A stretch of DNA of 64,000 nt from Tubulanus polymorphus (taxonomy: Eukaryota > Animalia > Nemertea). Under the pieces are notes generated by a model. That model was given only the letters and a program-made list of their open reading frames with translations. It was not told the origin of the DNA and ran no database searches. The stretch covers positions 1-64,000 of the forward strand of contig NW_027437453.1 of the NCBI RefSeq assembly GCF_964204645.1, written 5' to 3'. The position numbers and the translations under genes are program-made. Below are positions 24,551 through 55,950 of the stretch, piece by piece (position 1 is the stretch's first letter; each line of letters begins with the position of its first letter).

Positions 24551-27500
24551 AAGGATGATATATTAGAAACTAAATTAGAAGAATTAAAGAATGAAAAAGA
24601 AACATACAAATGTGATACATGTAATCAATCATTCAGTGATAAAAGATATTATAAAGAACATTTAAAATCTATAAGTCATATTAGAAATAAGAATAATGAT
24701 ATTTTAGGTGAAGATTATTTTGATAATGATAACGATAAGAAACAGAAGACAATTAAAAGAATAAAAAATAAATTAAACAATAAAAGACCATACATGGAAG
24801 ATGTAAGAAAATATATTAATTCATTAGATAATAAAAAAGATATAGAGATAACCGAAGCATTTAAAAGTGATATTGGTCCAGCAGCTATCGAGTTTAAATT
24901 TCATAAAGGTAAAACATTAGAAGAAAATAAAAAACATTTAGAAAATATGAAAGAAATAATAAAAATAATTACGGATGTTGAATATCCTAAAATAAGTATA
25001 TCAGTTAAAGTAAAGTTTATAAAATCTGAAGATAAACCAATATATAATATAAATTCTCATTCACAACATATTATATCTAAACAACATATAGATGATAAAT
25101 TAAATAAATGTTATAATGAAATAAAAACTAAAATAGAAGAGAAATATTTTGAAGGATCTGGTTTAATATTTGATGAGATAATATTTATAACTTTACATGT
25201 TTATAACACAAAATATAATAAGTTAACTAAATCAAAACCAATTGATGAAAATAATTTATCATATTATAAAGATGATAGTATAAATGGAACAAGTTATATT
25301 AAATTACCATTTAAAACTAATGGTGTAATAAATATACAAAATTTTGATAATAAATGTTTTATATGGGCAATAATAAGTTGTTTACACCCAGTTGAAGATT
25401 ATAAACAACATAGTTTTAGATTAACTCATTATAAACAATTTGAAAATAATTATAAGATAGATAAATATCCTGTTAGAATTAAAAATATTCCAAAAATAGA
25501 AAGAGATAATAATCTTAAAATAAATGTATTTGATTTAATTAAATTACCAAATACAAAAGGAAATAATATTAAACATTATACATTAGAACCTTTATATCTA
25601 TCAAAAGATTATGATTCAAATAATGTTATAGATATACTATATTATGAAAATCATTACATGTGGATTAAACAAATAGATTTATTTTTTAGAACAGAAAGTG
25701 ATCACCATAATAAAATATATCTATGTAGAAAATGTTTACATAAATTGAGTAATGAAAGTATATTATTAAATCATAAACAACTATGTGATAATCATGATTA
25801 TTGTAAATTAGTTTTACCAAATGAAAAAGATAAAATATTAGAATTCAAAAAATATGATTACAAAAATAAAGTACCATTTGTAATATATGGAGATTTTGAA
25901 TCATTAAATAAAGAATTAACAGATAAAGATAGAAAAGAAATATATTATAAAAGAAAGAAATTAAATTCTAATGAAAATGATTTTTCAGATGAACCACCAA
26001 AAACAAATACAATTAAAAAGATTCATCAATCAGCTGCAGCTTTCGGGTTATATATTAAATCTGATTATCCAGAACTAATTGAAAGTGAATATTATAATTA
26101 TAGAAATGAAAATGTTATCAATCATTTTTGTGACTTATTAATTGAATATGAAATAAGATTTAGTAAATTATTGAATACAAATATAGAAATTATAATGACA
26201 GAAGAAGATAAAGAAGAATTTGCGTTTGCAGATAAATGTTATTATTGTGAAAAACTATTTAATTATAAAGATAAAAAAGTAAGAGACCATGATCATTTGA
26301 ATGGAAAGTTTAGAGGCGCTGCACATGAGAATTGTAACTTACAAGCTAAGAAAATTAACTTTGTACCAGTTATATTTCATAATCTATCAGGATATGATGC
26401 ACATTTATTTATCAAACAGCTATGTTATAAAATAGAAGAAATCAATAATGAAATAGAAATATTAAATTCAAATAGATCAAAAGATAAAATACCAACTTAT
26501 AAATTTAAAATGTTAGCTAAAACATCTGAGAATTATATATCATTCCAATTTGGTTGTCTAAGATTTATAGATTCATATAGATTTTTAAATAGTTCATTAG
26601 ATAACTTATCAAAATCATTAATTGATGATGAATTAAAGATATTAAAAGAATATTACCCAAATTATGATGATTTTAAATTAATGAGATATAAAGGTGCAAT
26701 TCCATATTCTTTCTATAAAAATCATAATGATTTTGAAATAACTGAATTATTGAAAGAACAATTCTATGATGAATTAAAAAATGAATATGTTAAAGATGAA
26801 GTTTATAATAGAACATTGAATATTTGGAATCATTTCAAAATAGAAAATCATGGGCAATTAGTAGATTTATATTTAAAATCAGATGTATTATTATTAACCG
26901 ATATATTCGAAAGGTTTAGAGATGTAAACCTAAAATATTTCAATATTGATCCTTGTCATTGTTATTCATCACCAGGATTAACTTGGGATTGTGGTTTAAA
27001 ATTTACAGATATAAAAATGGATTTGTTAACAAATATAGATCAATTACTATTATTTGAAAAATCTATAAGAGGAGGTGTTTCAGGTGTATTGGGTGATAGA
27101 TATTTCAATGTAAATGATAATCCTGGATATAAATTATTATACATAGATGCAAATAATCTTTATGGTTGGGCAATGATGGAACCACAACCTTATGGGATGT
27201 TTGAAATAACTGAAGTTTTACAAATTGATAAATTTGATTGGAAGAAAAGAATCCTAGATATTGCAGATGATTCAGATACTGGTTACTTCTTTGTTGTAGA
27301 TTTAGAATACCCTGAAAATATTAAATTCAAATCTAGAAATCTAGCATATTGTCCCGAACATAAAACTGTTAAACATGAAGAATTATCAAATTATCAAAAA
27401 AGAATTAAACCCGATAATCATATTCATACTGAAAAGTTAATGGTAACTCAAGAAGATAAATATAATTATGTAGTGCATTATAGAATGTTAAAGTTTTATT

Positions 27501-28471
27501 TGAGACAAGGAATGATATTTAAAAAAGTACATAGATATATTTCATTTAATCAATCTAAATGGTTAGAAAAATATATAGATTTTAATACTACACAGAGAAC
27601 TAAATCTAAAACTGATTTTGAGAAGGATTTTTTTAAATTGATGAATAATGCATTTTATGGAAAAACATGTGAAAATATTAGAAATAGAAGTGATATTGAG
27701 TTAGTTAGTAATGGTAAAAGGATAAAGCATTTACAATCGTATCCGAAATTCATAAGCAACAGAATATTTGATGAAAATTTAGCTGCAGTTAAAATAAGGA
27801 GAACTTCTATGAAGTTCAATAAACCAATCTATGTTGGTGCTACAGTTTTAGAATTATCAAAGTTATTAATGTATAAATTTTACTATAACATATTACAACC
27901 CCATTTTGGAGAAAAAAATATAGAAATATTATATTTTGATACAGATTCTTACATATTAAAGATAAAAAGTGATAATATAAGAGATGATTTAAAAATATTA
28001 AAACATCATTTTGATTTTAGCAATTATCCTGAAGATCATGAACTATTTAGCAATGATAATAAAAAGATTCCTGGTAAGTTTAAGGATGAATTAGGTGGTG
28101 AAGAAATGATAGAGTTCATAGGTATTAGATCTAAAATGTATTCATATAAAACTAAAGAACATGAAGCTAAAAAGTTAAAAGGAATAACCAAAAGCGTTGT
28201 TGAAAAGAATATTCATTTTAAAGATTACATCAATTGTATATTTAATGAAGAAGTTAGAAAACATAAAATGAAATGTTTAAGATCTGAAGATCATGAAATG
28301 TATATTGAAGAGATAGAGAAGATAAGTCTAAACCAATTTGATGATAAAAGATATATTTTAGATGATGGAATCCACACAGTCGCCTATGGTTGCAATTTAG
28401 ATGAATATATAAAATTAAAAAGAGAAGAAACAAAAGAAAATGAGATTATGAAAAGGATTCTAACATGTTAA
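24437..28471 (+). CDS. pPolB: Protein-primed family B DNA polymerase with N-terminal C2H2 fingers and an inserted endonuclease VII-like His-Me finger
   Basis: YGDFES, FHNLSGYD, YLKSDV, YIDANNLYG, KLMNNAFYGK, YFDTDS; CYYC..RDHDH..RG..H..CN. Confidence 0.97.
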   Translation: MEANKYYCPTCKINIDKSQKARHNKTITHLENKLKLEYKDDILETKLEELKNEKETYKCDTCNQSFSDKRYYKEHLKSISHIRNKNNDILGEDYFDNDNDKKQKTIKRIKNKLNNKRPYMEDVRKYINSLDNKKDIEITEAFKSDIGPAAIEFKFHKGKTLEENKKHLENMKEIIKIITDVEYPKISISVKVKFIKSEDKPIYNINSHSQHIISKQHIDDKLNKCYNEIKTKIEEKYFEGSGLIFDEIIFITLHVYNTKYNKLTKSKPIDENNLSYYKDDSINGTSYIKLPFKTNGVINIQNFDNKCFIWAIISCLHPVEDYKQHSFRLTHYKQFENNYKIDKYPVRIKNIPKIERDNNLKINVFDLIKLPNTKGNNIKHYTLEPLYLSKDYDSNNVIDILYYENHYMWIKQIDLFFRTESDHHNKIYLCRKCLHKLSNESILLNHKQLCDNHDYCKLVLPNEKDKILEFKKYDYKNKVPFVIYGDFESLNKELTDKDRKEIYYKRKKLNSNENDFSDEPPKTNTIKKIHQSAAAFGLYIKSDYPELIESEYYNYRNENVINHFCDLLIEYEIRFSKLLNTNIEIIMTEEDKEEFAFADKCYYCEKLFNYKDKKVRDHDHLNGKFRGAAHENCNLQAKKINFVPVIFHNLSGYDAHLFIKQLCYKIEEINNEIEILNSNRSKDKIPTYKFKMLAKTSENYISFQFGCLRFIDSYRFLNSSLDNLSKSLIDDELKILKEYYPNYDDFKLMRYKGAIPYSFYKNHNDFEITELLKEQFYDELKNEYVKDEVYNRTLNIWNHFKIENHGQLVDLYLKSDVLLLTDIFERFRDVNLKYFNIDPCHCYSSPGLTWDCGLKFTDIKMDLLTNIDQLLLFEKSIRGGVSGVLGDRYFNVNDNPGYKLLYIDANNLYGWAMMEPQPYGMFEITEVLQIDKFDWKKRILDIADDSDTGYFFVVDLEYPENIKFKSRNLAYCPEHKTVKHEELSNYQKRIKPDNHIHTEKLMVTQEDKYNYVVHYRMLKFYLRQGMIFKKVHRYISFNQSKWLEKYIDFNTTQRTKSKTDFEKDFFKLMNNAFYGKTCENIRNRSDIELVSNGKRIKHLQSYPKFISNRIFDENLAAVKIRRTSMKFNKPIYVGATVLELSKLLMYKFYYNILQPHFGEKNIEILYFDTDSYILKIKSDNIRDDLKILKHHFDFSNYPEDHELFSNDNKKIPGKFKDELGGEEMIEFIGIRSKMYSYKTKEHEAKKLKGITKSVVEKNIHFKDYINCIFNEEVRKHKMKCLRSEDHEMYIEEIEKISLNQFDDKRYILDDGIHTVAYGCNLDEYIKLKREETKENEIMKRILTC

Positions 28472-28499
28472 TCAATTTCAATAAAAATTTGTATAATAA

Positions 28500-28841
28500 A
28501 TGGAGAGTAAACAAGTACATAGTGAATTCTTAGATAGAATTAAAGATACTTCAAACGTCAAATCTGTAGATTATAAATTTAAAAAACTAACTGAGTTAAC
28601 AATTCACATGAAATATTTAATTACTAACATTGAAACAATTACTAATAAATATGGAGATAAATTAGTAATTCATTTAGAATATGAAGGATTAAAAGGAAAT
28701 ACACATAAATTCAGAACTTATTTACCAGATAGATTTCATAGATTATCAAGTGAAGATCTAGAAGAATTATGTTCTGGGTATTTCTATTTCATATACAAAG
28801 GTAAGAATGAAAAAGGGCACCATGAAATAGATTTCGAATAA
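28500..28841 (+). CDS. Hypothetical Polinton protein (113 aa; possibly beta-rich/OB-like)
   Basis: Intact ORF with TAAATG start, tightly packed after pPolB. Confidence 0.75.
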   Translation: MESKQVHSEFLDRIKDTSNVKSVDYKFKKLTELTIHMKYLITNIETITNKYGDKLVIHLEYEGLKGNTHKFRTYLPDRFHRLSSEDLEELCSGYFYFIYKGKNEKGHHEIDFE

Positions 28842-28858
28842 GAAAATATGTAAAATAA

Positions 28859-29617
28859 ATGGCGGAATTAAAAGAATACAGAATATTTGTTGATTCTAGA
28901 AGGCTTACAAATTATAAATCTCATAATTTACTAGTACAATTAGATAGAGAATTCAAGAATTGTGTTGATTTAAAATTGATAAATATAAGTCTATGTAATT
29001 CTTTTTATAATATATCGAATAAAACTATTGAACATAGAGCCTTTTTAATTTTTAATAAGAATAAAAATGAATGGGCTTATATATATTTAAAACCGGGGTT
29101 ATATAATTTAGATACATTAGCACAAGAAATTAATAGAAAAGCCTGGCACAAGTCAGGTAATAATTCCGGGTTTAATATTAGATTTTTAAAAAGTGAGAGT
29201 ACTGACAAAATAAAGATAAGGTTGTCTGATAGTGAAAAACATGCGTTTATGGTAAAAAAACCTATAGCTAAACTGTTAAGAATTCCTCCAGATAAATCTT
29301 TTACAAATGTTGATGCTACACCAAACTTGATACCTTACACACACTTTTATATTTATTACAATTTAATCGATCCTACAAAAACATTCGAAGCAACTAAAGA
29401 TATAACTTGTAATTCTGGTTTACTAAACATTTTACCATTGAAGAATGTTAAAGAATTTGGAACACAAATAAATTATAATTTAACAGAATGTGATTTCAAA
29501 CCATGCATTCCTCGTTTTAATAATTTTAGATTAGAAATTAGAAATCATAATGGATACTTAATTGATTTAAATAATTTCCCTGTAATTTATGAATTAGTTA
29601 TAAGATGTAAAGAGTAA
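28859..29617 (+). CDS. Minor capsid protein (penton, single jelly roll)
   Basis: IFVDSR, NSFYNI, PGLYNLDTL and C-terminal IRNHNGYLIDLNN.PV.YEL, typical of Polinton/virophage pentons. Confidence 0.75.
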   Translation: MAELKEYRIFVDSRRLTNYKSHNLLVQLDREFKNCVDLKLINISLCNSFYNISNKTIEHRAFLIFNKNKNEWAYIYLKPGLYNLDTLAQEINRKAWHKSGNNSGFNIRFLKSESTDKIKIRLSDSEKHAFMVKKPIAKLLRIPPDKSFTNVDATPNLIPYTHFYIYYNLIDPTKTFEATKDITCNSGLLNILPLKNVKEFGTQINYNLTECDFKPCIPRFNNFRLEIRNHNGYLIDLNNFPVIYELVIRCKE

Positions 29618-29633
29618 TTTTTTCATTATATAA

Positions 29634-29975
29634 ATGAATATAACTGTTGGACCGAGTATATGTTTTGGGTTTGATTTTAAACATGGTAAAGAAATGAGAA
29701 TTAAACTAAATGATGTAATTACTGATATAAAAAGTAAATCATTTAACAATGCATCAATGATTGATAAAGAAAAGTATAATATAGAAAAAGTAATTGATTT
29801 AATTAAATCACCTTTAGAATATTATGAATTAAATGAAGATGGAATTATTGATGATATTAAAAACATATTATCCAAAATATATGATAATCATAAAACTAGT
29901 AATGAAATAAATGTTGAAATAATCATCACTAAGTTAACTAAATATTTTGAAGATAGTAATTTTTTTGATAAATAA
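29634..29975 (+). CDS. Hypothetical Polinton protein (113 aa)
   Basis: Intact ORF preceded by T6-N7-TAAATG. Confidence 0.7.
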   Translation: MNITVGPSICFGFDFKHGKEMRIKLNDVITDIKSKSFNNASMIDKEKYNIEKVIDLIKSPLEYYELNEDGIIDDIKNILSKIYDNHKTSNEINVEIIITKLTKYFEDSNFFDK

Positions 29976-30197
29976 ATGAGTGATAATAAGTGGATAATAA
30001 CTGGATTATATAATGGCGCATTACTATCAGTTGGAACTGTTGGTTATTCAATGGTATTAAAAAAAGTATTCAAAATGGGAAGTGTTAATGTTGATAGATT
30101 TGATATAAATGATATTTTGAAATTAACGTTAGCAGTTACTTTATCTAATTTAACTATTGATTATTTGGAAAAACAAAAATATATTCCTCCCATATAA
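29976..30197 (+). CDS. Small hydrophobic/membrane protein (73 aa)
   Basis: Two hydrophobic segments; TAAATG start. Confidence 0.75.
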   Translation: MSDNKWIITGLYNGALLSVGTVGYSMVLKKVFKMGSVNVDRFDINDILKLTLAVTLSNLTIDYLEKQKYIPPI

Positions 30198-30221
30198 ATG
30201 TATAATTTTTTTACTAAATAA

Positions 30222-30644
30222 ATGGCTTCTGCAATTATAACTATTATAGGATCGGCAATTGTTAACGCTTTAGCATTTACTGGTGGTGGTTATTTATTTA
30301 AACATATTGATAAAAATAGTTCATTAGGAGAACAAAGAAGACATAATTTAGCGTTAGAGAAATACAATAAAGCTGCAGAAGAATATAGAGAAAAGAGACA
30401 AAACTATATGGATTACATCAATAAAGAATTATATGATCAGAAGATTTCAAACAGAGATTTTCAATCAGTTGATGATGCAATGAGTTTATATAACACAGTA
30501 ACAAATAAAGAAAAATTACATCTATACAAACCTAAATTATCAGATTATTATACCCCAAGTAAAGAACAACAGAAATATGAAATAATATGGATTTTAGGTG
30601 GAACAGTTATTGTTATATTTGTTGCTTATAAGTTTACTAATTAG
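30222..30644 (+). CDS. Membrane protein (140 aa) with a hydrophobic Gly/Ala-rich N-terminus, coiled coil and C-terminal TM
   Basis: MASAIITIIGSAIVNALAFTGGG; IIWILGGTVIVIFVAY. Confidence 0.8.
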   Translation: MASAIITIIGSAIVNALAFTGGGYLFKHIDKNSSLGEQRRHNLALEKYNKAAEEYREKRQNYMDYINKELYDQKISNRDFQSVDDAMSLYNTVTNKEKLHLYKPKLSDYYTPSKEQQKYEIIWILGGTVIVIFVAYKFTN

Positions 30645-30663
30645 TAATTTTTATTCTAAATAA

Positions 30664-31098
30664 ATGGAAGATAAAGTTGATAATATTGATATTATTCCTC
30701 ATGATATAAATAAAACTAAATTAAAAACATATTTAGAAAAACAAATATTAGAATTTGAAAGTGACTTAAAGATAAAAAAGAAAAAATATTTAAAAAGTAA
30801 AATTATATATTATTTGATTATAAGTGGTTCGGTTACAATTAGTTCTGTAATAACATTTCTAGCAATATTCAGCCCATTAACACCTTTAGCTATATCAATT
30901 GGTGTATTAGGATTAAGTTCAAGTGTTTTAACTGGTATAAGTTCAAAATTAAATATAAAAAGTAATAAAGAAAAAATTAAAACTAATATAAATGAAATTA
31001 ATAAATTAAAGAACACACTAGATTATATAATAAGTTTAAATGGTCATATAACAGTTGAAGAACAAGATAAATTATTAAAAGAATTAATAAATTATTAA
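30664..31098 (+). CDS. Two-TM membrane protein (144 aa) with flanking coiled coils
   Basis: IIYYLIISGSVTISSVITFLAIF and LAISIGVLGLSSSVLTGI. Confidence 0.8.
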   Translation: MEDKVDNIDIIPHDINKTKLKTYLEKQILEFESDLKIKKKKYLKSKIIYYLIISGSVTISSVITFLAIFSPLTPLAISIGVLGLSSSVLTGISSKLNIKSNKEKIKTNINEINKLKNTLDYIISLNGHITVEEQDKLLKELINY

Positions 31099-31114
31099 TT
31101 TTTTAATTATATAA

Positions 31115-32416
31115 ATGGGGTTTCCAAAAGCTTTCCAATATAATAAATCAATTAAATATAATATTCCGGCAATAGATTTTAAGAAAAATATTACATATAA
31201 AAATGTAGTTTTAGATTCATTAACTAATTTAGAAATTTATGTTAATGAATCACAGTTTTTTATTTCTAAAATGGAAAATATATTTAATACATATGAAGTT
31301 ACTTTTACTCGAGATGAATATCATATATATAAAGTAAAATCTAATATGAAATATTGGCAGAATCAATTAAATTTTGCTGTTTATTGTGCAACAACAGGAT
31401 GTGGAATTAGTTGGAATGATCATTTAAATAACTTAGATAAAAATTTGAAGTATTCTGATTTAAAATTAATTCACACAATATTTAGATTTCACACATATTT
31501 TCAAATCAGAATAATATTAAATGAATTAGAATGTCCTTTACCCGGGTCTAAATATTTTAAAGAATTGGATAATAATATTAATATATCCAAGTTTTATAAA
31601 ATATGTAATGAATTTAATATAAATATTAATTCCGATTTTAGAGCGCATGGTAAATTGCAAGGTGTTGGTGAAGAGTATGAAATAAAAAGAATTGATTATA
31701 TGCATAGAATTTCAGCTTATCATAATTATAAAATTGATAATAATAATGGTTGGGTTAATTTCATTTTAGAAAATGGTGAAGGTTTTACAAAATCAGGTAT
31801 ATAAAGAATAAATCAATCTATTAGAATTTATTTGATATGTATTTTAGGCGCTCAAGTTGAAACAAGATCCCCAATAATTGGAAATGATAACACTTCATTC
31901 GATGCGCAGAAACAATTTAAAGTTTTATTTGAAGATTCAATTCATAATGATAAAAATAGATCGATTCCAGAAAACATTATAAGATATCAAAATTATTTAG
32001 ATAAATCTCATGTAAGACTAAATTATTGTATAGGCCCTAATCTATTAATTATTTCTAATGATTTAGTATTAAAGATGGGAAATATAATTGGTTATAATAA
32101 TCTAATTAAAACTGCAACAATAAATAATTCATTTGGATTAAATGATATAAATAAAAAGATTATTACTGCTCCAAAATTAATGGAAGGTGAAAAAAATAAA
32201 AAACATATTCAATCAACTGAAACTAAAACTAATAATATTAAATTGGTTAATGATTCCAAAATAAAAGATTACAATACATCAGAAAATAATAGAACTGATA
32301 AAATTCAACATGATATAATTAAACTAAATGATGATAATAAATCCCATGAAAATACTAAATTAGCTATAACTTGTATAGGAATTGTAATCGGAGGAATATT
32401 ATATTTTAAATTTTAA
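31115..32416 (+). pseudogene. Polinton protein with C-terminal TM, broken by one in-frame stop (31802-31804)
   Basis: ORFs 31115..31804 and 31832..32416 share a frame (GFTKSGI*RINQSIR); YWQNQLNFAVYCATTGCGIS motif; terminal LAITCIGIVIGGILYF. Confidence 0.8.
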
Positions 32417-32432
32417 TTTTTTTATTATGTAA

Positions 32433-34139
32433 ATGGATGTAGAAGGTGGAGAAGATTATGAAATGGGAGAAATGGGAAATAATAAGGAAGGATATATTGA
32501 TGATGATTATAATGATACAGAAACTAATATTGATAATAATGATGAATCAGCATATAATACTAATTTAGGTGAAGATAATGATTATGATGATGATGATGGA
32601 ATTAATACCGAAGTACGTGAAAAATTAAATAAATATTTAGAAGCTCCTGAAAGGGGTAGAATTTCAACTAGAAGAGAAAGAAAAGAATTTATGGAACAAT
32701 TAGTAAAACAACAAGAAAAATATCCTGATGAACATTTGGAATTATTTAAAATGAAATCTAGAGTAACAGATACAATTGTTAACGAATTATTACCATCAGT
32801 TGTAATAGATGAAATTGATACTGAAGATGTTGTAGAACAAATTTTTAAAGATGACCCATATTTCACAAATAATTTAGAATTTAAAAATGATGCATGGTAT
32901 TATAATCTTGATTTAAATAGGAATATTGTAACAATTCAATTATCTAAAATAGGTCAAGAAAATATTTTTGAACCTGAAATGCGAGCAACATCTACAATTG
33001 AAAATTCAAAAGGTGGTAGAGAATTTCTCAAAATTATATGGAATGCACTCGATAGAATAAATGAAGAAGAACCAATTCCTAAAATTAATATAAACAAATA
33101 TTCACCATTTAAAAATCCAAATCCTACTGATTTTGATCCAGAAATGGAAGAGAATAGAAATCGATTAGATAGATTAAGATCTTCAACACCCGAAACATCG
33201 AGAAGAGACACTCAACAAATTGATAATGATTCAAGTAAATTACAATTAGAAAAACAAATTGATAGATTAAGAGATTCAGAAGAACTGATGAATAGTATAT
33301 CAGATACATCTGGTTCTGAAACTGGAATAAATCGACTGCAATATTTACTAGAAAAAGGATTTCTTAATTTAACTGATGAAGAATTAGAAGCATTTCCTGA
33401 ACAAATACGTAGAGAAATTAAAGGTATACAAGTATCAGCTGATGAAATTGCTAATATTAAGATGAGATTTTCTAAAATAACCATGTTAGAAAAAGAATTA
33501 GTTAATGTAGATGAAGAATTAAAACAATTAGAATTAAATAGAAATCATCAAGTAGTTTATGAAGCTGATTTTGAAAGCAGAAAGTTAGCTTTAGTAAAAG
33601 AAATAGATGATTTAGAATATAACATAAAATTACAAAAAGAAGAAAGAGATATATTATTAAAATCATATGATCTTAATCATATTAAAAAATTAAAAGTTAT
33701 TTTTAAAGATTTGTTGATTAAACCAGATTCTGAAATATCATTAAAAGATAGAATAAAATTATTATTTAAATTAGAAGGAATAACAATTCTTTCAATTCTA
33801 ACATCTGTAACTATGGTATTTACAACAATAGGTTTAGCTATATCAAATGCTTTGAAATCTACTCCTACTCCCACTCCAAATAAACCGGATAAACCTCCAG
33901 GCAATAATTCTATACAAGATAAAGTTAAAGATGGTTTAAAGAAATTAGCAAAATATTTATGGGAACTATCTAAAAAATCTGCTGCAGCTTTACCAGGAGT
34001 TATTGCTTCAATTGTTGGTTTTATATTGAAATCTGCAGGTAATATTCTTAACTTTGCTGCTGAACATATTATTTTATTTTTAATTACAGTTGTTAGTGCT
34101 ATTATTTTTGGTTTAGTAAACATGATTAAAAATAAATAA
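32433..34139 (+). CDS. 568-aa protein with acidic N-terminus, long coiled coil and C-terminal membrane helices
   Basis: Heptad-rich region, TM segment, PTPTPNKPDKPP linker, amphipathic helix, terminal TM. Confidence 0.85.
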   Translation: MDVEGGEDYEMGEMGNNKEGYIDDDYNDTETNIDNNDESAYNTNLGEDNDYDDDDGINTEVREKLNKYLEAPERGRISTRRERKEFMEQLVKQQEKYPDEHLELFKMKSRVTDTIVNELLPSVVIDEIDTEDVVEQIFKDDPYFTNNLEFKNDAWYYNLDLNRNIVTIQLSKIGQENIFEPEMRATSTIENSKGGREFLKIIWNALDRINEEEPIPKININKYSPFKNPNPTDFDPEMEENRNRLDRLRSSTPETSRRDTQQIDNDSSKLQLEKQIDRLRDSEELMNSISDTSGSETGINRLQYLLEKGFLNLTDEELEAFPEQIRREIKGIQVSADEIANIKMRFSKITMLEKELVNVDEELKQLELNRNHQVVYEADFESRKLALVKEIDDLEYNIKLQKEERDILLKSYDLNHIKKLKVIFKDLLIKPDSEISLKDRIKLLFKLEGITILSILTSVTMVFTTIGLAISNALKSTPTPTPNKPDKPPGNNSIQDKVKDGLKKLAKYLWELSKKSAAALPGVIASIVGFILKSAGNILNFAAEHIILFLITVVSAIIFGLVNMIKNK

Positions 34140-34159
34140 TTAATTTTTTTGTTAAATAA

Positions 34160-35407
34160 ATGAGTGGGAGTTATATCAATCCTTCTAAGAATCATAGAAT
34201 ATCTAATGCTATTAAAGCAGAAAGATCACATCATATAATTACTCATAACCCTTCAAATATTAATCCCGATGAAACTTTATATGTTAGAATTCCTAGATTA
34301 ACACAAAATACTTTTTATGTTCCAAACAGTATTTATTTATCAGCTGATATAAAAGTAATCGGTAATAATAATAATTATGTCGTTGATAATGTTGGAAGAT
34401 ATTTGATTAAAAAGTTAACAATAAAGATTGGTCCAGAAACAGTTTTCTCATTAGATGATTATAATTTATTTATGCACTATTAAGATTTATGGTTAACTAA
34501 AGAAAATAGAAATAATATGATATTTCAAGGCATCCAATCAGAAAACCAAAATAAATTAAGATCAGAAGCTAATAGCGCAATATTAACAAATGATGTAGAT
34601 AAATTGATAAAAAGTATATATGGAAACAAATATAAAATTCCATTAGACTTTGAATTGATAAATAATAATGCACCTTTATATAAATACGCAATTCAAGAAG
34701 ATATTATATTTGAGATAACATTTGCTCCCGTAAATGAAATTGTAATATCTAGCGTTAATAAAGATATGAGTTATAAATTATCGAATATATGTTTAGAATA
34801 TGATACAGTAACTGATGAAAATATTTCAAGTATAATTCAAACTAAATACAATCAAGGATTTTCATTATTATATGATTATATTGATAAATTTAAAACCGTA
34901 ACTATTAATGCAAATGATGAAATAATTAATGAGAATATTAACTTCCCAAGAAGATCTATTAACGGTATATTAATATTTTTTACTATTGGAACGTATACTA
35001 ATGGCGCAATAAATGTTGACAATTATTATAATCCTGAAATAACAAAAGTAGAAATAACTATCGAAGGAATAGCAAATAAAATATTTTGTCAAGGAATGAG
35101 AATGATAGATCAATGGGTAGAAATTAAAAAACATTTTATGAATGAAAAAGTAAAATCATTTGAAAATTGTAACATTAATCAAATTGATTATTATACCGGT
35201 AATAAATATGCATTATGGTTAGATTTTAGAACAACTGAAGATAATTCATTACATGGTTCTGGGAAAAAACTACAAAATACAAAAGATGGAATACAATTAT
35301 TCATGACAAAGAAAAAGGGAATTAAAAATTTTAAAATGCACATTTATATTATATCTGACGCGCAATTAAATATTGTAAATTCACAATTAGATAGTGTTAT
35401 GTATTAG
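34160..35407 (+). pseudogene. Major capsid protein (double jelly roll) with a premature stop at 34481-34483
   Basis: ORFs 34160..34483 and 34517..35407 are in frame (HY*DLWLTK); beta-rich pattern, IKKLTIKIG, ALWLDF; ~415 aa. Confidence 0.8.
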
Positions 35408-35439
35408 AATTTTAACTTTAATAAAAATATATATAATAA

Positions 35440-36507
35440 ATGGAAGGAGGTAAAGTATATGAAAGAATCAAAGCTGATAAAGAAATCAATGATGATTTGT
35501 ATTATGTAATACCTTATAAAAGAATAAATGAATATATTGGAACATTTTTATTAAATGAATTAAATCAATACAAAGAATATTTAATTGAACGTAATAATAA
35601 TATTGATATAAAAATAGAAGATAATATTGAAACAAAAATAGAAGATAATATTGAAACAAAAATAGATAATAATATTGAAACAAAAATAGAAGATAATGTT
35701 ATACCTTCTACATCGAATGATGATAAGATTGAAACAAAAATAGAACATAATATTGAACCTAAAATAGAAAAATCAAATGTTCAACCAAAAGATAACATTA
35801 GATGTATGTATTGTGAAGAAGATTTTGATAATTACAATGATTATTTATTACACATCAAAAAAGATGAACATATTTTACAATTAGTAAAAACATATGCCAA
35901 TATATATAAAGATAAATGTAAAGAGGATCAGAATTATTGTGCCTTCTGTAATGAATGTATAACAAAGGCTAATTGGGCAAAACATTATAAATTAAAAACA
36001 AAAGGTGGAAATGATTCAGCCCATGCAATACAAGTATTTAAATCTTGGTGTGAAAAATGTAAAGAATATGTAATATATGATAAACAATTGAATCATAAAT
36101 ACTCAATTAAACATATTGGTACAGATAACGTAATAGAAAATCCAACAGTTATAAATCCAAAATTTAATAATATGAATATATTAGATTATCGGTGGTATAG
36201 AAAAACATTTATAGATTATTTCTTGAGTAATGATATAGTTACCATATTGAAAAAGTTAGATAACTTTAAACCAAATGTAACTTATGCAATGAACTTATTT
36301 GAACTTAAATATGATGATTTTAGAGAATTTTTAAATAAAAATCCATCTAAAACTGAAATCGAAAATTATATTCCAAAAATATTTTCAAGAAAAACATTCA
36401 ATAAATATAAACTTGGGAATTATTCAGGACCTATATCAAAGATAATGCAAAGGGATATATATTTAGAATACAATAAGCTTAAAGAAAAATATGAAAATGA
36501 AAATTAA
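35440..36507 (+). CDS. Zinc-finger protein (355 aa) with an internal (IEDNIETK)n repeat
   Basis: CMYC..H..H, CAFC..H, CEKC..H..H. Confidence 0.8.
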   Translation: MEGGKVYERIKADKEINDDLYYVIPYKRINEYIGTFLLNELNQYKEYLIERNNNIDIKIEDNIETKIEDNIETKIDNNIETKIEDNVIPSTSNDDKIETKIEHNIEPKIEKSNVQPKDNIRCMYCEEDFDNYNDYLLHIKKDEHILQLVKTYANIYKDKCKEDQNYCAFCNECITKANWAKHYKLKTKGGNDSAHAIQVFKSWCEKCKEYVIYDKQLNHKYSIKHIGTDNVIENPTVINPKFNNMNILDYRWYRKTFIDYFLSNDIVTILKKLDNFKPNVTYAMNLFELKYDDFREFLNKNPSKTEIENYIPKIFSRKTFNKYKLGNYSGPISKIMQRDIYLEYNKLKEKYENEN

Positions 36508-36511
36508 AAAG

Positions 36512-36889
36512 ATTATAGAATTCACTGTATATTGATGGATGAATGGATGAGTTGGAAGAGTTGGATGAATTGGATGAGTGGAAGAGTGGATGAGTATAAT
36601 AATATATATATTTTACTTTTTAACACATAAATTGGAAGAATAGTATGAGTATAAATATAATATTTTTATTCTTTATTAAATTTAACACAATATATATATA
36701 TTATTAAAATAATATTTAAATATAGTATAAAATTGATAAAATAACTTCAAATCAAACTCTTACTGTTTTAAAAATAAAAAACATATGTAAATTATATATT
36801 ATTACACTCATCCATTCATCCACTCTTCCAATTCATCCAATTCATCCAATTCATCCACTCATCCATCAATATACAGTGAATTCTATAAT
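36512..36889. repeat. Inverted repeat (~90-bp arms built of GGATGA(A/G)T microrepeats) between convergent gene blocks
   Basis: ATTATAGAATTCACTGTATATTGATGGATGA...TCATCCATCAATATACAGTGAATTCTATAAT. Confidence 0.9.
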
Positions 36890-36905
36890 ATTTTGAATTA
36901 GGATT

Positions 36906-37517
36906 TTATTTTATAAATTTATATTCATAGGGAAATTGTAATCTCATTAATAATTTTGAACCTTTATTATTTTTTAATTTATTCATATATTCATCATGTA
37001 ATTCAGTAGGTATAATTTGATTTTCTTCCAATGATTGTTGCATAGATTTTCTATCTTTGTTGTAGAATAAAACTAGAAATCTTATATTCTCTCTAAAATC
37101 TTTCACAATTGAATTATATTTTTGATTTAAAACCCATGTTGTTATCCCAAAATGTCTACCAGAGAAAGCTAAATAACATAACTCACTTTCTCTAATTTTA
37201 GAATCATGTAAATTTGCGCAATCATCGATAATAAATAATGTATTTGATCCTTTATAAATATCTAATGCAATTTTTATACAATTATCTAAATTTTCTTTTA
37301 CTGTTTTAGGGTCTAATATAATAAACTTTTTTATCTTAACTATATCTCTATTATATGTTTTATTCATTTCATATGTAGGACAGAATAATATTATATTATC
37401 AAAATGATTTTTATAAATAGTTTCTAACAAGTCTAATATGAAATGTGTTTTACCACAATTTGTAACTCCAATAACTAACATATTATGTGGTTCAAATATA
37501 AATAAATCTTTATTCAT
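36906..37517 (-). CDS. A32-like (FtsK/HerA) DNA packaging ATPase
   Basis: Walker A GVTNCGKT, Walker B FIIDD, GRH motif, Q sensor. Confidence 0.92.
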   Translation of the reverse strand: MNKDLFIFEPHNMLVIGVTNCGKTHFILDLLETIYKNHFDNIILFCPTYEMNKTYNRDIVKIKKFIILDPKTVKENLDNCIKIALDIYKGSNTLFIIDDCANLHDSKIRESELCYLAFSGRHFGITTWVLNQKYNSIVKDFRENIRFLVLFYNKDRKSMQQSLEENQIIPTELHDEYMNKLKNNKGSKLLMRLQFPYEYKFIK

Positions 37518-38599
37518 TTATTCTTTTAATTTTACTAGATAAAATCCATTCATTAAATTTATCATCATATCCTTTATATTTCACCAAAGAATACTTTTTT
37601 CCTTTAAGAGTTTTTGTTTTCAATACTTTTTCTATTTTGTATTCTATTTCATCTGGATTTGGTACTAATGATAATTCTTGTTCATAAAAATAACCTAATA
37701 TTTCTTCATCTTTTAAATCAAACAATTTATAAACAAATGGTTTAGTTAATATTATCTTTTTAATTTTAAATATTTCTTCAGTAAAATTAGGGGTATAACC
37801 TTTATAAAATGTTTTTCGATATTTAGAAATTCTAACATGTTGTCCTATTTTTAATTTAGGTTCTCCAAAATCGTGTGTAACAAATGCGCCATAAAAATTA
37901 TTCCAAACTATTTCTGAATTTTCTTCTTTTCTAGCTTGTATAGGTTTTAATATTTATAGAACTATGTTTAGAATTATTATAACCTTTAACTAAATCATCT
38001 AACACATCGATATATTTATATGTTTCATTAGCGGTGAAATATTTCCACATTCTAGTTTTCAATGTTTTATTAAATCTTTCTATAACAAATGCTTTTTTAT
38101 CTGAATGTGTTGAAAAATATTCTACATCGTTATCAGTTAATAGTTTTTTAAAATGTTTGTTATAAAATTCCTTACCTTCATCAAATTGTATCTTATCTGG
38201 AATAGCTTCTTTAAATATTAATTTGAAAGAATTTGTAACTTCTATACCAGTTTTATTTTTAATCGGGATACTCCATGCGTATCTACTGAATATGTCTATA
38301 ACATTTAGTATCCAAAAATATCCTTTGTTATATTTTTCTAAGTTTTTCATATCAATTAAATCAGCTTGCCATTGTTGGTCAATATATGAAACCATTACTT
38401 TTCTTGTTAAATATTTTTTATCCATCTTTTTATGAATTTGATATGTGGGTTGATTTTGTAACCATGATTTTAATTCACTATATTTTATTTTTTCTTTATC
38501 AGATTTAATTTTATCCCATAATTCCGAAACACTTGAATATGATACTTCACTTTCTGGGTTATAATATAAATCTCTTAAATATTGTTCTTTTTTCATCAT
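37510..38599 (-). pseudogene. RVE (retroviral-type) integrase with C-terminal chromodomain; one frameshift near 37945-37955
   Basis: WQADLIDM, FDEGKEF, IERFNKTLK; the alternative frame continues KPIQA...VRISKY..F.KGYTPNFTEEIF into the chromodomain (LVKYKGYDDKFNEWI). Confidence 0.92.
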
Positions 38600-38602
38600 A
38601 TT

Positions 38603-38998
38603 TTAATCCATTAATAATATTTTAGATTTATTTTCATTTGATTTATGATTTGACTTATTTTCTGGTATAATAGGTTTATCATCATTGGAATCATCTTTAT
38701 CATCAGATTTGAATTTTGATTTATATATTACACCGGATAATATAATAATTGTGATTAACCCAATTGTAATATATAAGTAATTATTTCTTCCACTATTAGA
38801 AGAATTAGATGGATTATTATTTGAATCAATACCACCGTGTGGGTGCTGTACGGCACCATCAGATAATTTCTGTGATTCATTTATATCAGTTAATTTCTTT
38901 TTCTTAGCTTTTTTTAATTCTGATGATCTTTTACCTAATTCTCTTGCCCATTTAATTTGTTTCTCGGATCTAGCCTTTTTCTTAACTCCATCACTCAT
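38603..38998 (-). CDS. 131-aa protein with a basic N-terminus and one TM
   Basis: KKKARSEKQIKWARELGKRS; YLYITIGLITIIILSGVIY. Confidence 0.75.
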   Translation of the reverse strand: MSDGVKKKARSEKQIKWARELGKRSSELKKAKKKKLTDINESQKLSDGAVQHPHGGIDSNNNPSNSSNSGRNNYLYITIGLITIIILSGVIYKSKFKSDDKDDSNDDKPIIPENKSNHKSNENKSKILLMD

Positions 38999-39593
38999 TT
39001 ATTTTAGTTAATTTTTGTTCTGATTCATTTTCTGTTTCGATGTTTTGTTGTAGTACATCTGTTTCGTTCTTACCTGATTTATATTCCATATTCTTGATGT
39101 TCGAAAATGTTATGACGCCAGTAGAAATTAATGTCATAACCGATCCTAATTGGAATGAAGCATAACCGACCCATTTTTGTAATTCAGTCATAACTAAGTA
39201 GTCATTTTTCAAATCATTATATAATTTATTTTCATCATCAATTGGTATTAACTGGTTACATAACTTAGAATAACATTTGACAATACCATCTGAAATAGAA
39301 TCATTTATTCTAGCTAATCTTGACTCTTCATAAATCTTAAAATATTTTATTACTTTTTCTTTGTTCATATTATCTAATTCTTGAAAAGTTATTGTTTTAC
39401 CAATAAACTCTTTAGTTTTTCCACTCGCAATCAATAGTTCTAGATGATGTTTACAATATAAGTAGTATTCATAATCTATATTGTTATTAACTTGAATAGA
39501 ATTAGTTACAACTGTATCTTTATTATCACTTATACCCAAATCATCTAATGTTTTTTCAATATCAATACTATTCTTATTAGATTTCTTTGACAT
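38991..39593 (-). CDS. Hypothetical Polinton protein (200 aa) with a hydrophobic C-terminal segment
   Basis: Intact ORF preceded by T6-N9-TAAATG. Confidence 0.75.
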   Translation of the reverse strand: MSKKSNKNSIDIEKTLDDLGISDNKDTVVTNSIQVNNNIDYEYYLYCKHHLELLIASGKTKEFIGKTITFQELDNMNKEKVIKYFKIYEESRLARINDSISDGIVKCYSKLCNQLIPIDDENKLYNDLKNDYLVMTELQKWVGYASFQLGSVMTLISTGVITFSNIKNMEYKSGKNETDVLQQNIETENESEQKLTKINE

Positions 39594-39896
39594 TTATATT
39601 AGAGGAAAAAAGCAAAAAAAAATATTTTAAGTATTCTTCAAATGATACTAGATAGTTAAAGTTAAAGAACTCTAGTATTGACTACTGATACTAGCTATTT
39701 GAATTTAAAGAATTTCTATTTGAATCTATTCAAAATATAAAGTATTCTTTTTTGAAAAGAAAATATTAAAAATATAATAGAATTCACAAGCTAGTTGAAG
39801 TTATTGTTTTTTAAATATTTTTTATTTAAAATCTATTTGATATCTCACTACTTTTGTTTATCTATTAGGAGCAGTAGTTATAACTGTCCAGATAAG

Positions 39897-40571
39897 TCAT
39901 TTCGGATCCTTGATATCAAATTCCTCAACGTATTGTTCATTCTGTGGGTTACTATTCCACCAATCAATAAATTTCCTTGCTTTATTCAACTGTTCCAAAT
40001 ATAATTGTAAATCTAGTTTATTAGATTTGATTTGATTTTCTTTCTTTTCTAAAGGCCTTAGATTCTTCCAATTCCAAATAAGTTTTTTATTGTATTCATC
40101 ATTCATGTTAAATTTAGATATTGGTAACACGTGATCAATATGGTAATAATCCCCATAATTATCTATATTCATTTTATCATCGAATTGATATATTATCCAT
40201 GATTTGAGAAATTCATCTGAACAACCCAATAAATTAGATAGTGTTTCTGAATGTGTTTCTTTGTTGAATAATTGTGTTAATCTAGACCTTAAGCATTGTT
40301 TCAATCTAAAATTAAGATCTGTTTGATATCTTTCTCTCATATATTCTGTCATATAATCATTATAATGTTCTCTATTATCTTCTCGATATTGTTTGGTGTA
40401 TAGTTTAGTACAAGTTTTACAACAATATTGAAAACCATCTTTGCTAATCTTACGCTTACTAAATTCTGTTAATGATTTATCTAATTCACATTTAGAACAC
40501 TTCTTGTAGTATATGTTTATAACACCAGTGTTATTTGTAATATTGATAATTTGTGGTTCTTCTGGTTCCAT
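39897..40571 (-). CDS. HNH endonuclease with an N-terminal Cys4 zinc finger (type common in large DNA viruses)
   Basis: CSKC...CKTC; YHIDHVLP...NLRPL...EN. Confidence 0.85.
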   Translation of the reverse strand: MEPEEPQIINITNNTGVINIYYKKCSKCELDKSLTEFSKRKISKDGFQYCCKTCTKLYTKQYREDNREHYNDYMTEYMRERYQTDLNFRLKQCLRSRLTQLFNKETHSETLSNLLGCSDEFLKSWIIYQFDDKMNIDNYGDYYHIDHVLPISKFNMNDEYNKKLIWNWKNLRPLEKKENQIKSNKLDLQLYLEQLNKARKFIDWWNSNPQNEQYVEEFDIKDPK

Positions 40572-41686
40572 TTATTATACATATTTTTTCACTAAATTGG
40601 TTAATATTTTAGAATCCTCTTCCATTTCTTCGACCAACGTCATCCTTTTTCATTCTTCGTTGCTTTTGATAAGTTGTTTCGATTCCTTGATATCTAAATA
40701 ATACCACTGGGCAAAACCGCTCTTATAGGAGCGCTTTTGCTTAATGCGCATGCGTTAATCATAATTATATATTCATTCTGTAAATTCTGTAAAATAGAAA
40801 CGACCGACATAAAATATCAAAACGTGTTCGCATTAAGCAAACCGCGCATTCATGCGCGCTTTTGCTTAATGCGCATGCGCTAATCATAATTGAAACGAAT
40901 TATTATTGAAACGACTGAACATAAAAATTCACCAAACAGATTTACACAATACATTATACAATTTGTTCAGTCGTTTCTTCCAATACATCATTTGATTTCT
41001 ATAAATACAATTTATAATTACAAACATTTTTTCAATTGCTGGTAAATATTTAACTACATCAACAAATGTTAAACTTAATCATTGGAGTCTTAATGTTTTT
41101 GAAATTCTTATATAGTTTCTTCGACGATCTTTTGGCGATTCTTGTGTTTCTTGTGCTAATTTCTATTGGTTCGATATCCATTGCTGTTGATTCCTCAGTC
41201 AGAAAGAGTATCTTGAGTTTCTCTATCACTTCTTGATGCGTATGGCGTTTTATTAATCTAAAAGATATTAGCGGTAACTCTAGCTATCTAAAAGATATAC
41301 TAAATACACTTAAATATATCTAAAGGTTTCATATTTAATAGTCTTAATAACTACAACAAACAGTACTTACATTTAGATTTATAATTGTAAACTATAAACT
41401 CCTAATTTCGTTTCGAAAGATAGAATATCCTGAGCACAATATTACAACGTATATCCATTTCCGGGGCGATTTCTAGAATGAACACGTCGTTGATTATGCC
41501 ACGTCATCTAGTTCGGGTTTAGAGTGTTCTACACGTTTCTGATTATGACGCGTCATAATGTCTCGTCGTTATAGTAACAACTGTAACAGCTGTGAATTTA
41601 TAGATTTATTCTATAGCTCTGTATATTGAATGTATATAGGCTAAAATAGAATCATTTTCTAGTATAAACATCATATCCTCAATGTA

Positions 41687-41878
41687 TTATTCATTATTTG
41701 GATCAGTGTTCCATAATTCAATAAATTTCTTTCCTTTTGTTAACTGTTCTGAATATAACTGTAAATATTCTAGTTTCAATTTATTCTCTAAATGTGTTAT
41801 AGTTTTATTGTGTCTTGCTTTTTGAGACTTATCTATATTTATCTTACATGTTGGGCAGTAGTACTTATTTGCTTCCAT
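41687..41878 (-). pseudogene. Chimeric ORF: pPolB N-terminal zinc finger (from the TIR) fused to the tail of an HNH paralog
   Basis: First 38 aa identical to pPolB; LQLYSEQLTKGKKFIELWNTDPNNE resembles LQLYLEQLNKARKFIDWWNSNPQNE. Confidence 0.75.
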
Positions 41879-42228
41879 TTTAATACTATATTTTTTATTA
41901 AAATTGATTTTAGAAGTTCAATGATTTAAATGTTATTCATATATATATGAATATTTTAAGAGTAATAGGGATAATAGGCTTTCAAGCTAAAGGTTGAACG
42001 GGCGGGTGAGTAAAAATGAAAAACATAAAAATAATAACAATTTCTACTTGAATTAGGAGTGAAACTCATGAAAATGAAAAATAAATTCGAGCGTGTGAGA
42101 ATTTATTTTTCATTTTTATGAGTTTCGCGAGTAATTCAAGTAGAAATTGTTATTATTTTTATGTTTTTCATTTTTTAACGAGCTCGACCGTTCGACCTTT
42201 GGCTTGAAAGCCTATTATCCCTATTAGT
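41765..42228 (-). repeat. Right TIR; contains the terminal hairpin 41961-42228
   Basis: Reverse complement of the left TIR; ends ...CTATTAGT (one mismatch to the expected ...CTATTACT). Confidence 0.95.
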
Positions 42229-55835: not shown

Positions 55836-55950
55836 TCACAAGTATATTCCGATTGATTTTCGCATGTATATTCCGATTGATTTTCGCATGTATTTTCCGA
55901 CTGATTTTCGCATGTATATTCCGTTGTTTGATTCGACAAACTTTCGCATG
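55836..55950. repeat. 24-bp tandem repeat within BEL gag (TCENQSEY)n
   Basis: GATTTTCGCATGTATATTCCGATT-like units. Confidence 0.8.

What the first reader, a model, noticed from the sequence alone, without database searches (positions are those of the whole stretch)
29976..39593. Membrane-protein-rich, protease-less gene set
Seen: about 7 ORFs have TM-like segments (29976, 30222, 30664, 31115-32416, 32433, 38603, 38991). Five of them form a contiguous block between the penton and MCP genes, all under class B promoters. No adenain-like cysteine protease is recognisable. Known: canonical Polintons encode that protease and are considered non-enveloped. Inference: a lipid-containing virion, a dedicated entry/egress module, or membrane-disrupting effectors acting against the host or a helper virus.
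Basis: partly seen in the sequence, partly recalled or inferred. Interest (0 to 1): 0.75.

Follow-up and report, generated by a model that had tools for sequence, protein, structure and literature searches.

The report
Polinton lineage with membrane-protein virion module
This virus-like jumping element in an animal genome belongs to a widespread Polinton lineage that keeps seven hydrophobic or membrane-anchored proteins beside its capsid genes and has no detectable adenovirus-type maturation protease, which likely means its particle carries a lipid membrane under the capsid, and its sub-group has poxvirus-type promoters that suggest it relies on a helper virus.

Summary
The finding lies in an 18.1-kb Polinton (24088-42228, 6-bp target duplication, multi-copy host family; this copy has broken genes). 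Five of the seven ORFs carry clear transmembrane-strength segments; 29976 and 38991 are weak here, though 98 of 120 homologues of 38991 have an N-terminal anchor. The set is not a local oddity. Six families occur with this capsid in 14 of 14 related loci of 10 kb or more (SLATT-like 13 of 14), across 20-60% GC and in shuffled order. No adenain was found here or in 66 accessory ORFs of relatives, but the polymerase keeps a vOTU-like Cys/His pair, so 'protease-less' is too strong. The capsid is a double jelly-roll that does not look like an adintovirus hexon, and protease absence is normal for Polinton-like viruses. The 31115 protein is a tail-anchored domain with no fold match. Best reading (0.5): an internal-membrane virion, as in PRD1 or NCLDVs. 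14 of 16 genes start with TAAATG in late-like and intermediate-like classes, in one sub-clade only, which points to a poxvirus-type helper. No particle or lipid was observed.

The parts
24088..42228 (.). Whole Polinton-type element; terminal inverted repeats; 6-bp target-site duplication at 24082-24087 and 42229-42234
   Evidence: 413-nt 100% inverted arms 24138-24550 / 41765-42177; flanks read directly; 37 reads join the empty site and loose ends at both termini show many different flanks
24437..28471 (+). Protein-primed DNA polymerase B, 1344 aa, with Zn fingers, a vOTU-like Cys307/His406 pair and an endonuclease-VII-like insert
   Evidence: domain assignment by motif and position following PMC11161782, not by fold
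28859..29617 (+). Putative penton (minor capsid), 252 aa; A-rich + TAAATG start
   Evidence: family in 27 related loci plus the window; weak DUF5901 match E 0.0046; identity inferred, not folded
29634..29975 (+). 113-aa non-hydrophobic ORF with late-type start, shared only with L001
29976..30197 (+). 73-aa two-helix, moderately hydrophobic protein; not a clear TM protein
   Evidence: 29 of 86 loci; dN/dS 0.07 against L001; max KD 1.16; alignment
30222..30644 (+). 140-aa protein: N-terminal hydrophobic helix, long charged helical stretch, C-terminal anchor
   Evidence: 31 of 86 loci; 1646 clusters at 50% identity
30664..31098 (+). 144-aa two-segment SLATT-like protein
   Evidence: SLATT_fungal E 0.0037, below cut-off; link to the 23-locus family F9 is indirect, via L028 at E 2.5e-4
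31115..32416 (+). About 433-aa tail-anchored protein, broken here by an in-frame stop: a ~350-aa globular domain with near-invariant Cys/His/Glu, a disordered linker and one C-terminal helix
   Evidence: 32 of 86 loci; 822 homologues; model of an intact natural homologue pLDDT 83; no fold match; conservation
32433..34139 (+). 568-aa protein: variable acidic N-half, coiled coil, hydrophobic segment, Pro/Gly linker, basic amphipathic helix, two more hydrophobic segments
   Evidence: 51 of 86 loci; only generic coiled-coil hits in PDB sequences
34160..35407 (+). Double jelly-roll major capsid protein, broken here by an in-frame stop at 34481-34483
   Evidence: model of an intact natural homologue pLDDT 85; PBCV-1 Z 27.1, rmsd 3.3, 349 aligned; 637 homologues
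35440..36507 (+). 355-aa variable protein with Zn-finger-like C/H motifs and a 24-bp repeat
   Evidence: one weak homologue, in L003
36906..37517 (-). A32-type packaging ATPase; A-rich + TAAATG start
   Evidence: Pox_A32 E 5e-12
37519..38599 (-). rve integrase, frameshifted near 37930-37950 in this copy
   Evidence: rve E 2e-9; two frames
38603..38998 (-). 131-aa single-pass protein: basic N-terminal helix, central TM segment, C-terminal tail usually ending in M-D/E
   Evidence: 33 of 86 loci, 14 of 14 long loci; a profile from distant members alone finds it at E 6e-4
38991..39593 (-). 200-aa helical protein; most homologues have an N-terminal TM anchor that this sub-clade lacks; usually next to the ATPase
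   Evidence: 43 of 86 loci; within 400 nt of the ATPase in 36 of 40 loci; N-terminal segment in 98 of 120 homologues
39897..40571 (-). Endonuclease VII / HNH accessory gene
   Evidence: phrog_1035 E 1e-18

Best explanation
The seven ORFs are a conserved core module of a widespread animal Polinton lineage with a non-adintovirus double jelly-roll capsid and no detectable adenain, and they likely build a lipid membrane inside the capsid, as in phage PRD1 and the large DNA viruses. Shown: lineage-wide co-occurrence, purifying selection, conserved anchors, no signal-peptide-like segment in the largest domain, and shared late-type starts with the MCP for six of seven. Inferred roles: 38991 and 38603, usually next to the ATPase, anchor the packaging motor and genome to the membrane; 30222 and 29976 tie capsid to membrane; 32433 (coiled coil, hydrophobic segments, amphipathic helix) and the tethered 31115 domain act in entry; 30664 may be a holin-like egress or defence protein. 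A membrane-templated capsid would not need adenain-type maturation. In the window's sub-clade, transcription would come from a poxvirus-type helper reading intermediate-like and late-like TAAATG promoters.
For: 14 of 14 loci of 10 kb or more carry five families with the MCP and the sixth, 38603; SLATT-like 13 of 14; GC 20-60% and several gene orders. Anchors are conserved in position. dN/dS 0.07-0.61. 0 of 134 homologues of 31115 have an N-terminal hydrophobic segment, unlike the glycoproteins of budding viruses (general knowledge). 38991 lies beside the ATPase in 36 of 40 loci; PRD1 packages through membrane proteins P20/P22 with ATPase P9 (PMC4267777 passages), and among phages FtsK-type motors are said to occur only with internal membranes (PMC7617512 passage). 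Best named MCP fold matches are NCLDV capsids; the first adintovirus row is rank 19 at 10% identity; 15 of 59 homologues weakly match Capsid_N. TAAATG at 14 of 16 starts against 61 of 741 ATGs overall. Eight starts are T-rich with T at -10 (MCP, six hydrophobic ORFs, 29634) and six are A-rich (ATPase, penton, 38603 and three others), matching the vaccinia late and intermediate consensus; vaccinia A32 is intermediate and virion membrane proteins are mainly late (PMC11980589 passages).
Against: No particle, lipid or expression data. 29976 is not TM-strength, and 38991 lacks its anchor in this copy and its closest relatives. No sequence or fold link to any PRD1, poxvirus or NCLDV membrane protein was found. 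A PBCV-1 top hit does not discriminate, because canonical Polinton MCPs also match VP54 best (PMC4028283). Protease-less PLVs are not known to me to have membranes, so losing adenain does not imply lipid. Hydrophobic 'Macc', holin-like and SLATT proteins are already described in elements treated as non-enveloped. TAAATG is absent from 35 of 50 MCP starts that have the same module, so the promoter argument covers one sub-clade only. The family profiles were built from the same loci they were counted in.
Confidence: 0.5

Rival explanations
1. Non-enveloped capsid whose hydrophobic proteins are internal cement and membrane-penetration proteins (adenovirus VI/X-like, 'Macc' class), with no bilayer.
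For: Adintoviruses encode PLA2X, GasderminX and cupiennin-like membrane-active proteins (PMC8502044). 32433 has a strongly amphipathic basic helix (moment 0.63). 29976 is amphipathic rather than TM.
Against: Three to four families have classic single anchors at fixed positions on otherwise soluble proteins (31115, 38603, most 38991 homologues, the C-terminus of 30222). Seven such proteins is far more than the one to three described for adintoviruses.
Confidence: 0.25
2. Outer envelope gained by budding, with 31115 and 32433 as attachment and fusion proteins.
For: 31115 is a large domain on a flexible tether with a C-terminal anchor and three conserved Cys. 32433 has a coiled coil plus several hydrophobic segments.
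Against: No N-terminal signal-like segment in 0 of 134 homologues. No match to known fusogen folds beyond short generic helices.
Confidence: 0.1
3. Non-structural membrane effectors for lysis or abortive infection, acting against the host or a helper virus.
For: 30664 weakly matches SLATT. A 2026 preprint reports holin-like and SLATT groups in polisuviruses and proposes these roles.
Against: Conflict effectors are usually patchy and fast-evolving (general knowledge), whereas these are in 14 of 14 long loci with dN/dS mostly under 0.3 and share the MCP's promoter class. Plausible for 30664 alone.
Confidence: 0.1
4. Separate axis: maturation cleavage still happens, done by a hidden or borrowed protease (the 31115 domain as a new-fold Cys/His enzyme, the pPolB vOTU, or a helper's I7-type protease).
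For: 31115 keeps C94, C99, H106, H122, C160 and E162 at 96-100%. The vOTU pair is intact. An M/I/L-x-G-G pattern sits near the N-terminus of 25 of 28 homologues of 30222. Vaccinia I7 is a late gene.
Against: No papain-like or other protease fold matched the 31115 model. The window's own 30222 lacks the G-G. No conserved AG-X site occurs in any family (at most 6 of 24 in the locus alignments). The Cys/His set fits metal binding equally well.
Confidence: 0.2
5. Separate axis: TAAATG is read by host Pol II or an element-encoded factor, or is just AT-rich start context or a poly(A) signal, so no helper is involved.
For: 10 of the 14 window motifs contain AATAAA (read). Other Polintons are reported in unchecked scan notes to carry their own TBP and late box.
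Against: Only 7 of 14 MCP and 0 of 6 ATPase TAAATG starts in the sub-clade contain AATAAA. The motif persists at 40-44% GC and is missing from equally AT-rich distant loci. No TBP-like gene is seen in the element.
Confidence: 0.35

Closest known systems
Canonical Maverick-Polintons / adintoviruses (Polintoviricetes, mavpol 1 and 2; PMC8502044, PMC4028283)
   Same: pPolB with OTU domain, rve integrase, A32 ATPase, double jelly-roll MCP, TIRs, 6-bp duplication, animal host, about 18 kb; some membrane-active accessory proteins
   Different: No adenain detected; MCP not close to adintovirus hexons in BFVD; no PLA2X or gasdermin match; seven conserved hydrophobic families instead
Animal 'Polintons' with non-mavpol capsids: Polinton-3_NV and N1A_NV (PMC11296320), Octocorallia/Hydrozoa/Bivalvia elements near Aquintoviruses (bioRxiv 10.64898/2026.06.19.733378), Meld23486 (bioRxiv 10.1101/2024.03.25.586562)
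   Same: pPolB plus rve joined to a different capsid module in animals; two 38991 homologues are named from lucinid-bivalve symbiont bins
Polinton-like viruses (Aquintoviricetes; PMC4642659)
   Same: MCP + mCP + ATPase without maturation protease; SLATT and holin-like groups reported across polisuviruses
   Different: This lineage has pPolB and rve, sits in animals, and no lipase was detected; no relative found in 2.9 million IMG/VR contigs
Phage PRD1 (Tectiviridae) and NCLDV internal-membrane virions
   Same: Works-like comparison: protein-primed linear genome of about 15 kb, double jelly-roll capsid, packaging ATPase with small membrane partners (PMC4267777)
   Different: No detectable homology of the membrane proteins; eukaryotic integrating element; membrane not observed
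Entomopoxvirus-associated PLVs (PMC11296320)
   Same: Small polinton-like genomes proposed to parasitise poxviruses
   Different: All four encode an adenovirus-type protease; the paper has no occurrence of 'promoter', 'TAAATG' or 'membrane'

Membership tests
Polinton (mobile-element definition) | pPolB and rve integrase | tested here: met
   integrase frameshifted in this copy
Polinton (mobile-element definition) | Terminal inverted repeats and 6-bp target duplication | tested here: met
Adintovirus / mavpol | OTU-like domain in pPolB | tested here: met
   Cys307/His406 motif pair; by motif and position, not by fold
Adintovirus / mavpol | Adenain-type maturation protease | tested here: not met
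   No peptidase family in 18 window ORFs or 66 accessory ORFs from 25 loci of 7 kb or more; no motif in six frames. Caveats: most loci are partial, and there was no positive control for profile sensitivity
Adintovirus / mavpol | Hexon recognisably similar to adintovirus hexons | tested here: inconclusive
   First adintovirus row is rank 19, 10% identity, in BFVD; no reference hexon was available for a direct comparison
Aquintoviricetes (PLV) | MCP or ATPase grouping with PgVV/TsV-type references | not testable with these tools
   No reference sequences or profiles held; MCP matches only Capsid_N weakly, 15 of 59
Aquintoviricetes (PLV) | MCP + mCP + ATPase without protease | tested here: met
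   penton identity inferred
Internal-membrane DJR viruses (works like) | Lipid bilayer under the capsid | not testable with these tools
   needs particles
Internal-membrane DJR viruses (works like) | Several conserved virus-encoded integral membrane proteins | tested here: met
   hydropathy-based only
Internal-membrane DJR viruses (works like) | Homology to PRD1, poxvirus or NCLDV membrane proteins | tested here: inconclusive
   no matches; absence of a match does not exclude it
SLATT domain (30664) | Pfam SLATT score above cut-off | tested here: inconclusive
   17.8 bits against cut-off 26.5; 2 of 22 family members match at E<0.01
Poxvirus-dependent satellite | Post-replicative TAAAT(G) promoters in late and intermediate classes | tested here: met
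   14 of 16 starts; consensus from PMC11980589; sequence match only
Poxvirus-dependent satellite | Replication only with a helper | not testable with these tools
   no helper identified

The most novel reading that the evidence does not exclude
A large, unnamed family of animal Polintons builds tectivirus-like virions with an internal membrane and a new-fold tail-anchored entry protein, so it is a living link between PRD1-type phages and NCLDV membranes; and one sub-clade, including this element, is an endogenous virophage of poxvirus-type viruses that uses their intermediate and late transcription cascade.
Probability: 0.3. Interest if true: 0.88.

Novelty: new variant of a known kind. Interest (0 to 1): 0.62.

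Why it matters
Polintons are proposed to descend from membrane-containing tectiviruses and to be related to membrane-containing giant viruses, yet no Polinton virion has been seen. A very common animal lineage (637 MCP clusters, 1646 clusters for one small protein) with a fixed membrane-protein set and no adenain gives a concrete place to ask whether the ancestral membrane was kept. It also supplies a confidently modelled domain with no fold match. The TAAATG sub-clade predicts helper-dependent, virophage-like biology in animals, which can be tested with simple promoter reporters.

Tried and rejected
No whole genome is held for this window. No MCP relatives in the phage collection or IMG/VR. 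PDB sequence searches with family profiles gave nothing useful: MCP 0 hits; 31115 one hit at E 5; 32433 only coiled-coil hits; 38991 and 30222 noise. ESM Atlas gave no usable hit for 32433 residues 330-568 or a 31115 homologue; this shows neither novelty nor absence. Fold searches of the 31115 model listed no protease, fusogen or poxvirus entry protein (best Z 3.7; the model is over 400 residues, so a single-domain match could be missed). Homology of 30664 and 32433 was rejected (hhalign probability 12%). The ATPase-38991 complex prediction gave no verdict, so the proposed partnership is untested. No RNA holder was listed. A recoded genetic code was rejected as the cause of the stops: homologues are open under the standard code and only 2 of the ORFs are interrupted this way. 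Conserved AG-X cleavage sites were not found. Other ORFs in the window are BEL/Pao retrotransposon parts, with no second Polinton to supply adenain. The MCP tree is the quick version only; the careful search did not finish. Literature searches found no paper describing this gene set, an internal membrane in a Polinton, or TAAATG promoters in one. Two key reviews were not held, and I did not open any supplements (orthogroup tables, genome maps), which may already list these families.
Full report
Setting. The finding lies in an AT-rich island (18-29% GC against about 37% in the flanks) bounded by 413-nt perfect inverted arms. The element runs 24088-42228 with a 6-bp target duplication. It encodes pPolB, an A32 ATPase (E 5e-12) and an rve integrase (E 2e-9). 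Flanking DNA holds BEL/Pao retrotransposons, which points to an animal host (general knowledge). Public reads of the coded 'organism A' cover the whole element, mostly at 90-99% identity; 1084 and 609 reads run off the two ends into unlike flanks, and 37 reads span the empty site. So this is one copy of a multi-copy, polymorphic family. This copy is broken in three genes: in-frame stops in 31115-32416 and in the MCP, and a frameshift in the integrase.

Observation. Five ORFs have TM-strength segments; 29976 and 38991 do not in this copy. Only three beat their own shuffles at p<0.01. The stronger evidence is conservation of anchor position across families, against near-zero rates in MCP, penton, integrase and pPolB controls.

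The set is lineage-wide. The MCP has 637 homologues. Its alignment retrieved 80 of 191 confirmed metagenome loci and 6 loci from genome bins. Among these 86 mostly partial loci, profiles found 31115 in 32, 30222 in 31, 29976 in 29, 38991 in 43, 32433 in 51 and the SLATT-like family in 25, and 38603 in 33. All 14 loci of 10 kb or more carry six families, and 13 of 14 carry the SLATT-like gene. The profiles were built from these same loci. A leave-out test still found the window's 38603 at E 6e-4, whereas the link of 30664 to the wider SLATT-like family is only indirect. GC ranges from 20 to 60% and gene order varies. The commonest order is SLATT-like, penton, 31115, 32433, MCP, ATPase, 38991, 38603, 29976, 30222, integrase, pPolB. 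dN/dS against L001 is 0.07-0.61.

Anatomy. 31115: the model of an intact homologue (134 sequences, pLDDT 83, pTM 0.79) shows a mostly helical domain of about 350 residues, a disordered linker (363-414) and a terminal helix (416-441). Foldseek gave no match at E<=0.001 in BFVD or PDB, and the best exhaustive Z was 3.7. Three Cys, two His and a Glu are 96-100% conserved. 32433: coiled coil, hydrophobic segment, Pro/Gly linker, basic amphipathic helix, two more hydrophobic segments. 30222: hydrophobic at both ends of a charged helical stretch; 1646 clusters at 50% identity. 38603: basic helix, one TM segment, tail usually ending M-D/E. 38991: N-terminal anchor in 98 of 120 homologues, and next to the ATPase in 36 of 40 loci, two of which are fused ORFs.

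Protease. No adenain motif or peptidase family was found in the element, nor in 66 accessory ORFs of 100 aa or more from the 25 loci of 7 kb or more. I had no positive control, and most loci are partial. pPolB keeps a vOTU-like Cys307/His406 pair, a domain proposed to cut off the terminal protein (PMC11161782 passages).

Capsid. The MCP model (pLDDT 85) is a double jelly-roll: PBCV-1 Z 27.1, faustovirus 23.8, ASFV 22.4, Sputnik 19.0, PRD1 13.2, adenovirus 11.8. In BFVD the top named rows are NCLDV capsids and the first adintovirus row is rank 19. Canonical Polinton MCPs also match PBCV-1 best, so only the BFVD ranking argues for a non-mavpol capsid. Animal Polintons with such capsids are mentioned in print: Polinton-3_NV and N1A_NV (PMC11296320, parts 2-3 of 8); Octocorallia, Hydrozoa and Bivalvia elements near Aquintoviruses (bioRxiv 10.64898/2026.06.19.733378, passages and parts 2-3 of 5); Meld23486 (bioRxiv 10.1101/2024.03.25.586562 passages); and a coral clade outside the main clusters (PMC11131425, passages and section 6). 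I could not test identity with these.

Promoters. TAAATG overlaps 14 of 16 start codons against 61 of 741 ATGs in the element. Eight starts have a T-tract and T at -10 (MCP, 29634, 29976, 30222, 30664, 31115, 32433, 38991); six are A-rich (28500, penton, 35440, ATPase, 38603, HNH). This matches the vaccinia late and intermediate consensus and the functional split there (PMC11980589 passages; PMC5294985 passages). On a quick MCP tree of 50 rows, 14 TAAATG rows including the window form one branch (SH-aLRT 99), a fifteenth sits nearby on a long branch, and 35 lack the motif. So helper-type transcription, if real, belongs to a sub-clade, while the membrane module is older.

Mechanism. I commit at 0.5 to an internal-membrane virion. 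The reasons are many conserved anchors, no signal-peptide-like segment on the largest domain (0 of 134), an ATPase-linked membrane protein as in PRD1 (PMC4267777 passages; PMC7617512 passage), and co-regulation with the MCP. All role assignments are inference. The main rival (0.25) is a naked capsid with adenovirus-VI-like penetration proteins, a class already proposed for adintoviruses (PMC8502044, parts 1-3 of 6). Holin-like and SLATT groups are reported across polisuviruses (bioRxiv 10.64898/2026.10.13.758929, passages and parts 2-3 of 5), which may cover some of these families; I did not see its supplements.

Verdict. The feature is real and conserved but partly misframed. It is a new variant of a known kind, interest 0.62. 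Ten literature searches found no description of the module or the promoters.

Noticed in passing
window 24437-40571, gene starts: Two-class poxvirus-type promoter system (late-like T-tract + TAAATG; intermediate-like A-rich + TAAATG), shared by a sub-clade of 14-15 loci; may deserve its own follow-up as an endogenous poxvirus-type virophage.
   Followed up: partly
window 41687-41878 (-): The right terminal repeat duplicates the first ~37 codons of pPolB, then continues into sequence 79% similar to the end of the HNH gene (39922-40012).
   Followed up: no
window 39915, 40801, 41924: Hundreds of reads from sister copies leave the reference here, so the right-end accessory region is swapped among copies; L001 has a deoxynucleoside kinase in a similar slot.
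   Followed up: partly
L028:8189-12388; L022:9967-13596; L039:9276-12458: The same membrane/capsid module is paired with different pPolB classes (a pfam03175-type in L028, a third type in L022 and L039), so replicases are exchanged.
   Followed up: no
L021, L041, L042 pPolB N-terminal region: An L-R-G-G motif, like the ubiquitin C-terminus (recalled), lies just before the vOTU domain and is a candidate self-cleavage site; the window has a different sequence there.
   Followed up: no
L021:944-2218, L022:680-1435, L050:1181-1705: A fibre-like gene (T7 tail-fibre or C1q-like matches; family F17, 10 loci) sits next to the penton in distant relatives but is absent from the window element.
   Followed up: no
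L081-L086; P0009; P0534, P0563: Members of this lineage are filed in bacterial genome bins and named as Bartonella or Thiodiazotropha proteins, most likely animal DNA contamination.
   Followed up: no
window 3544-4616 and 52043-57217: Degraded BEL/Pao LTR retrotransposons; 10386-12815 is an 809-aa ORF without a Pfam match.
   Followed up: no
window 36494-36907: 115-nt imperfect inverted repeat between the converging ends of the two gene cassettes.
   Followed up: no
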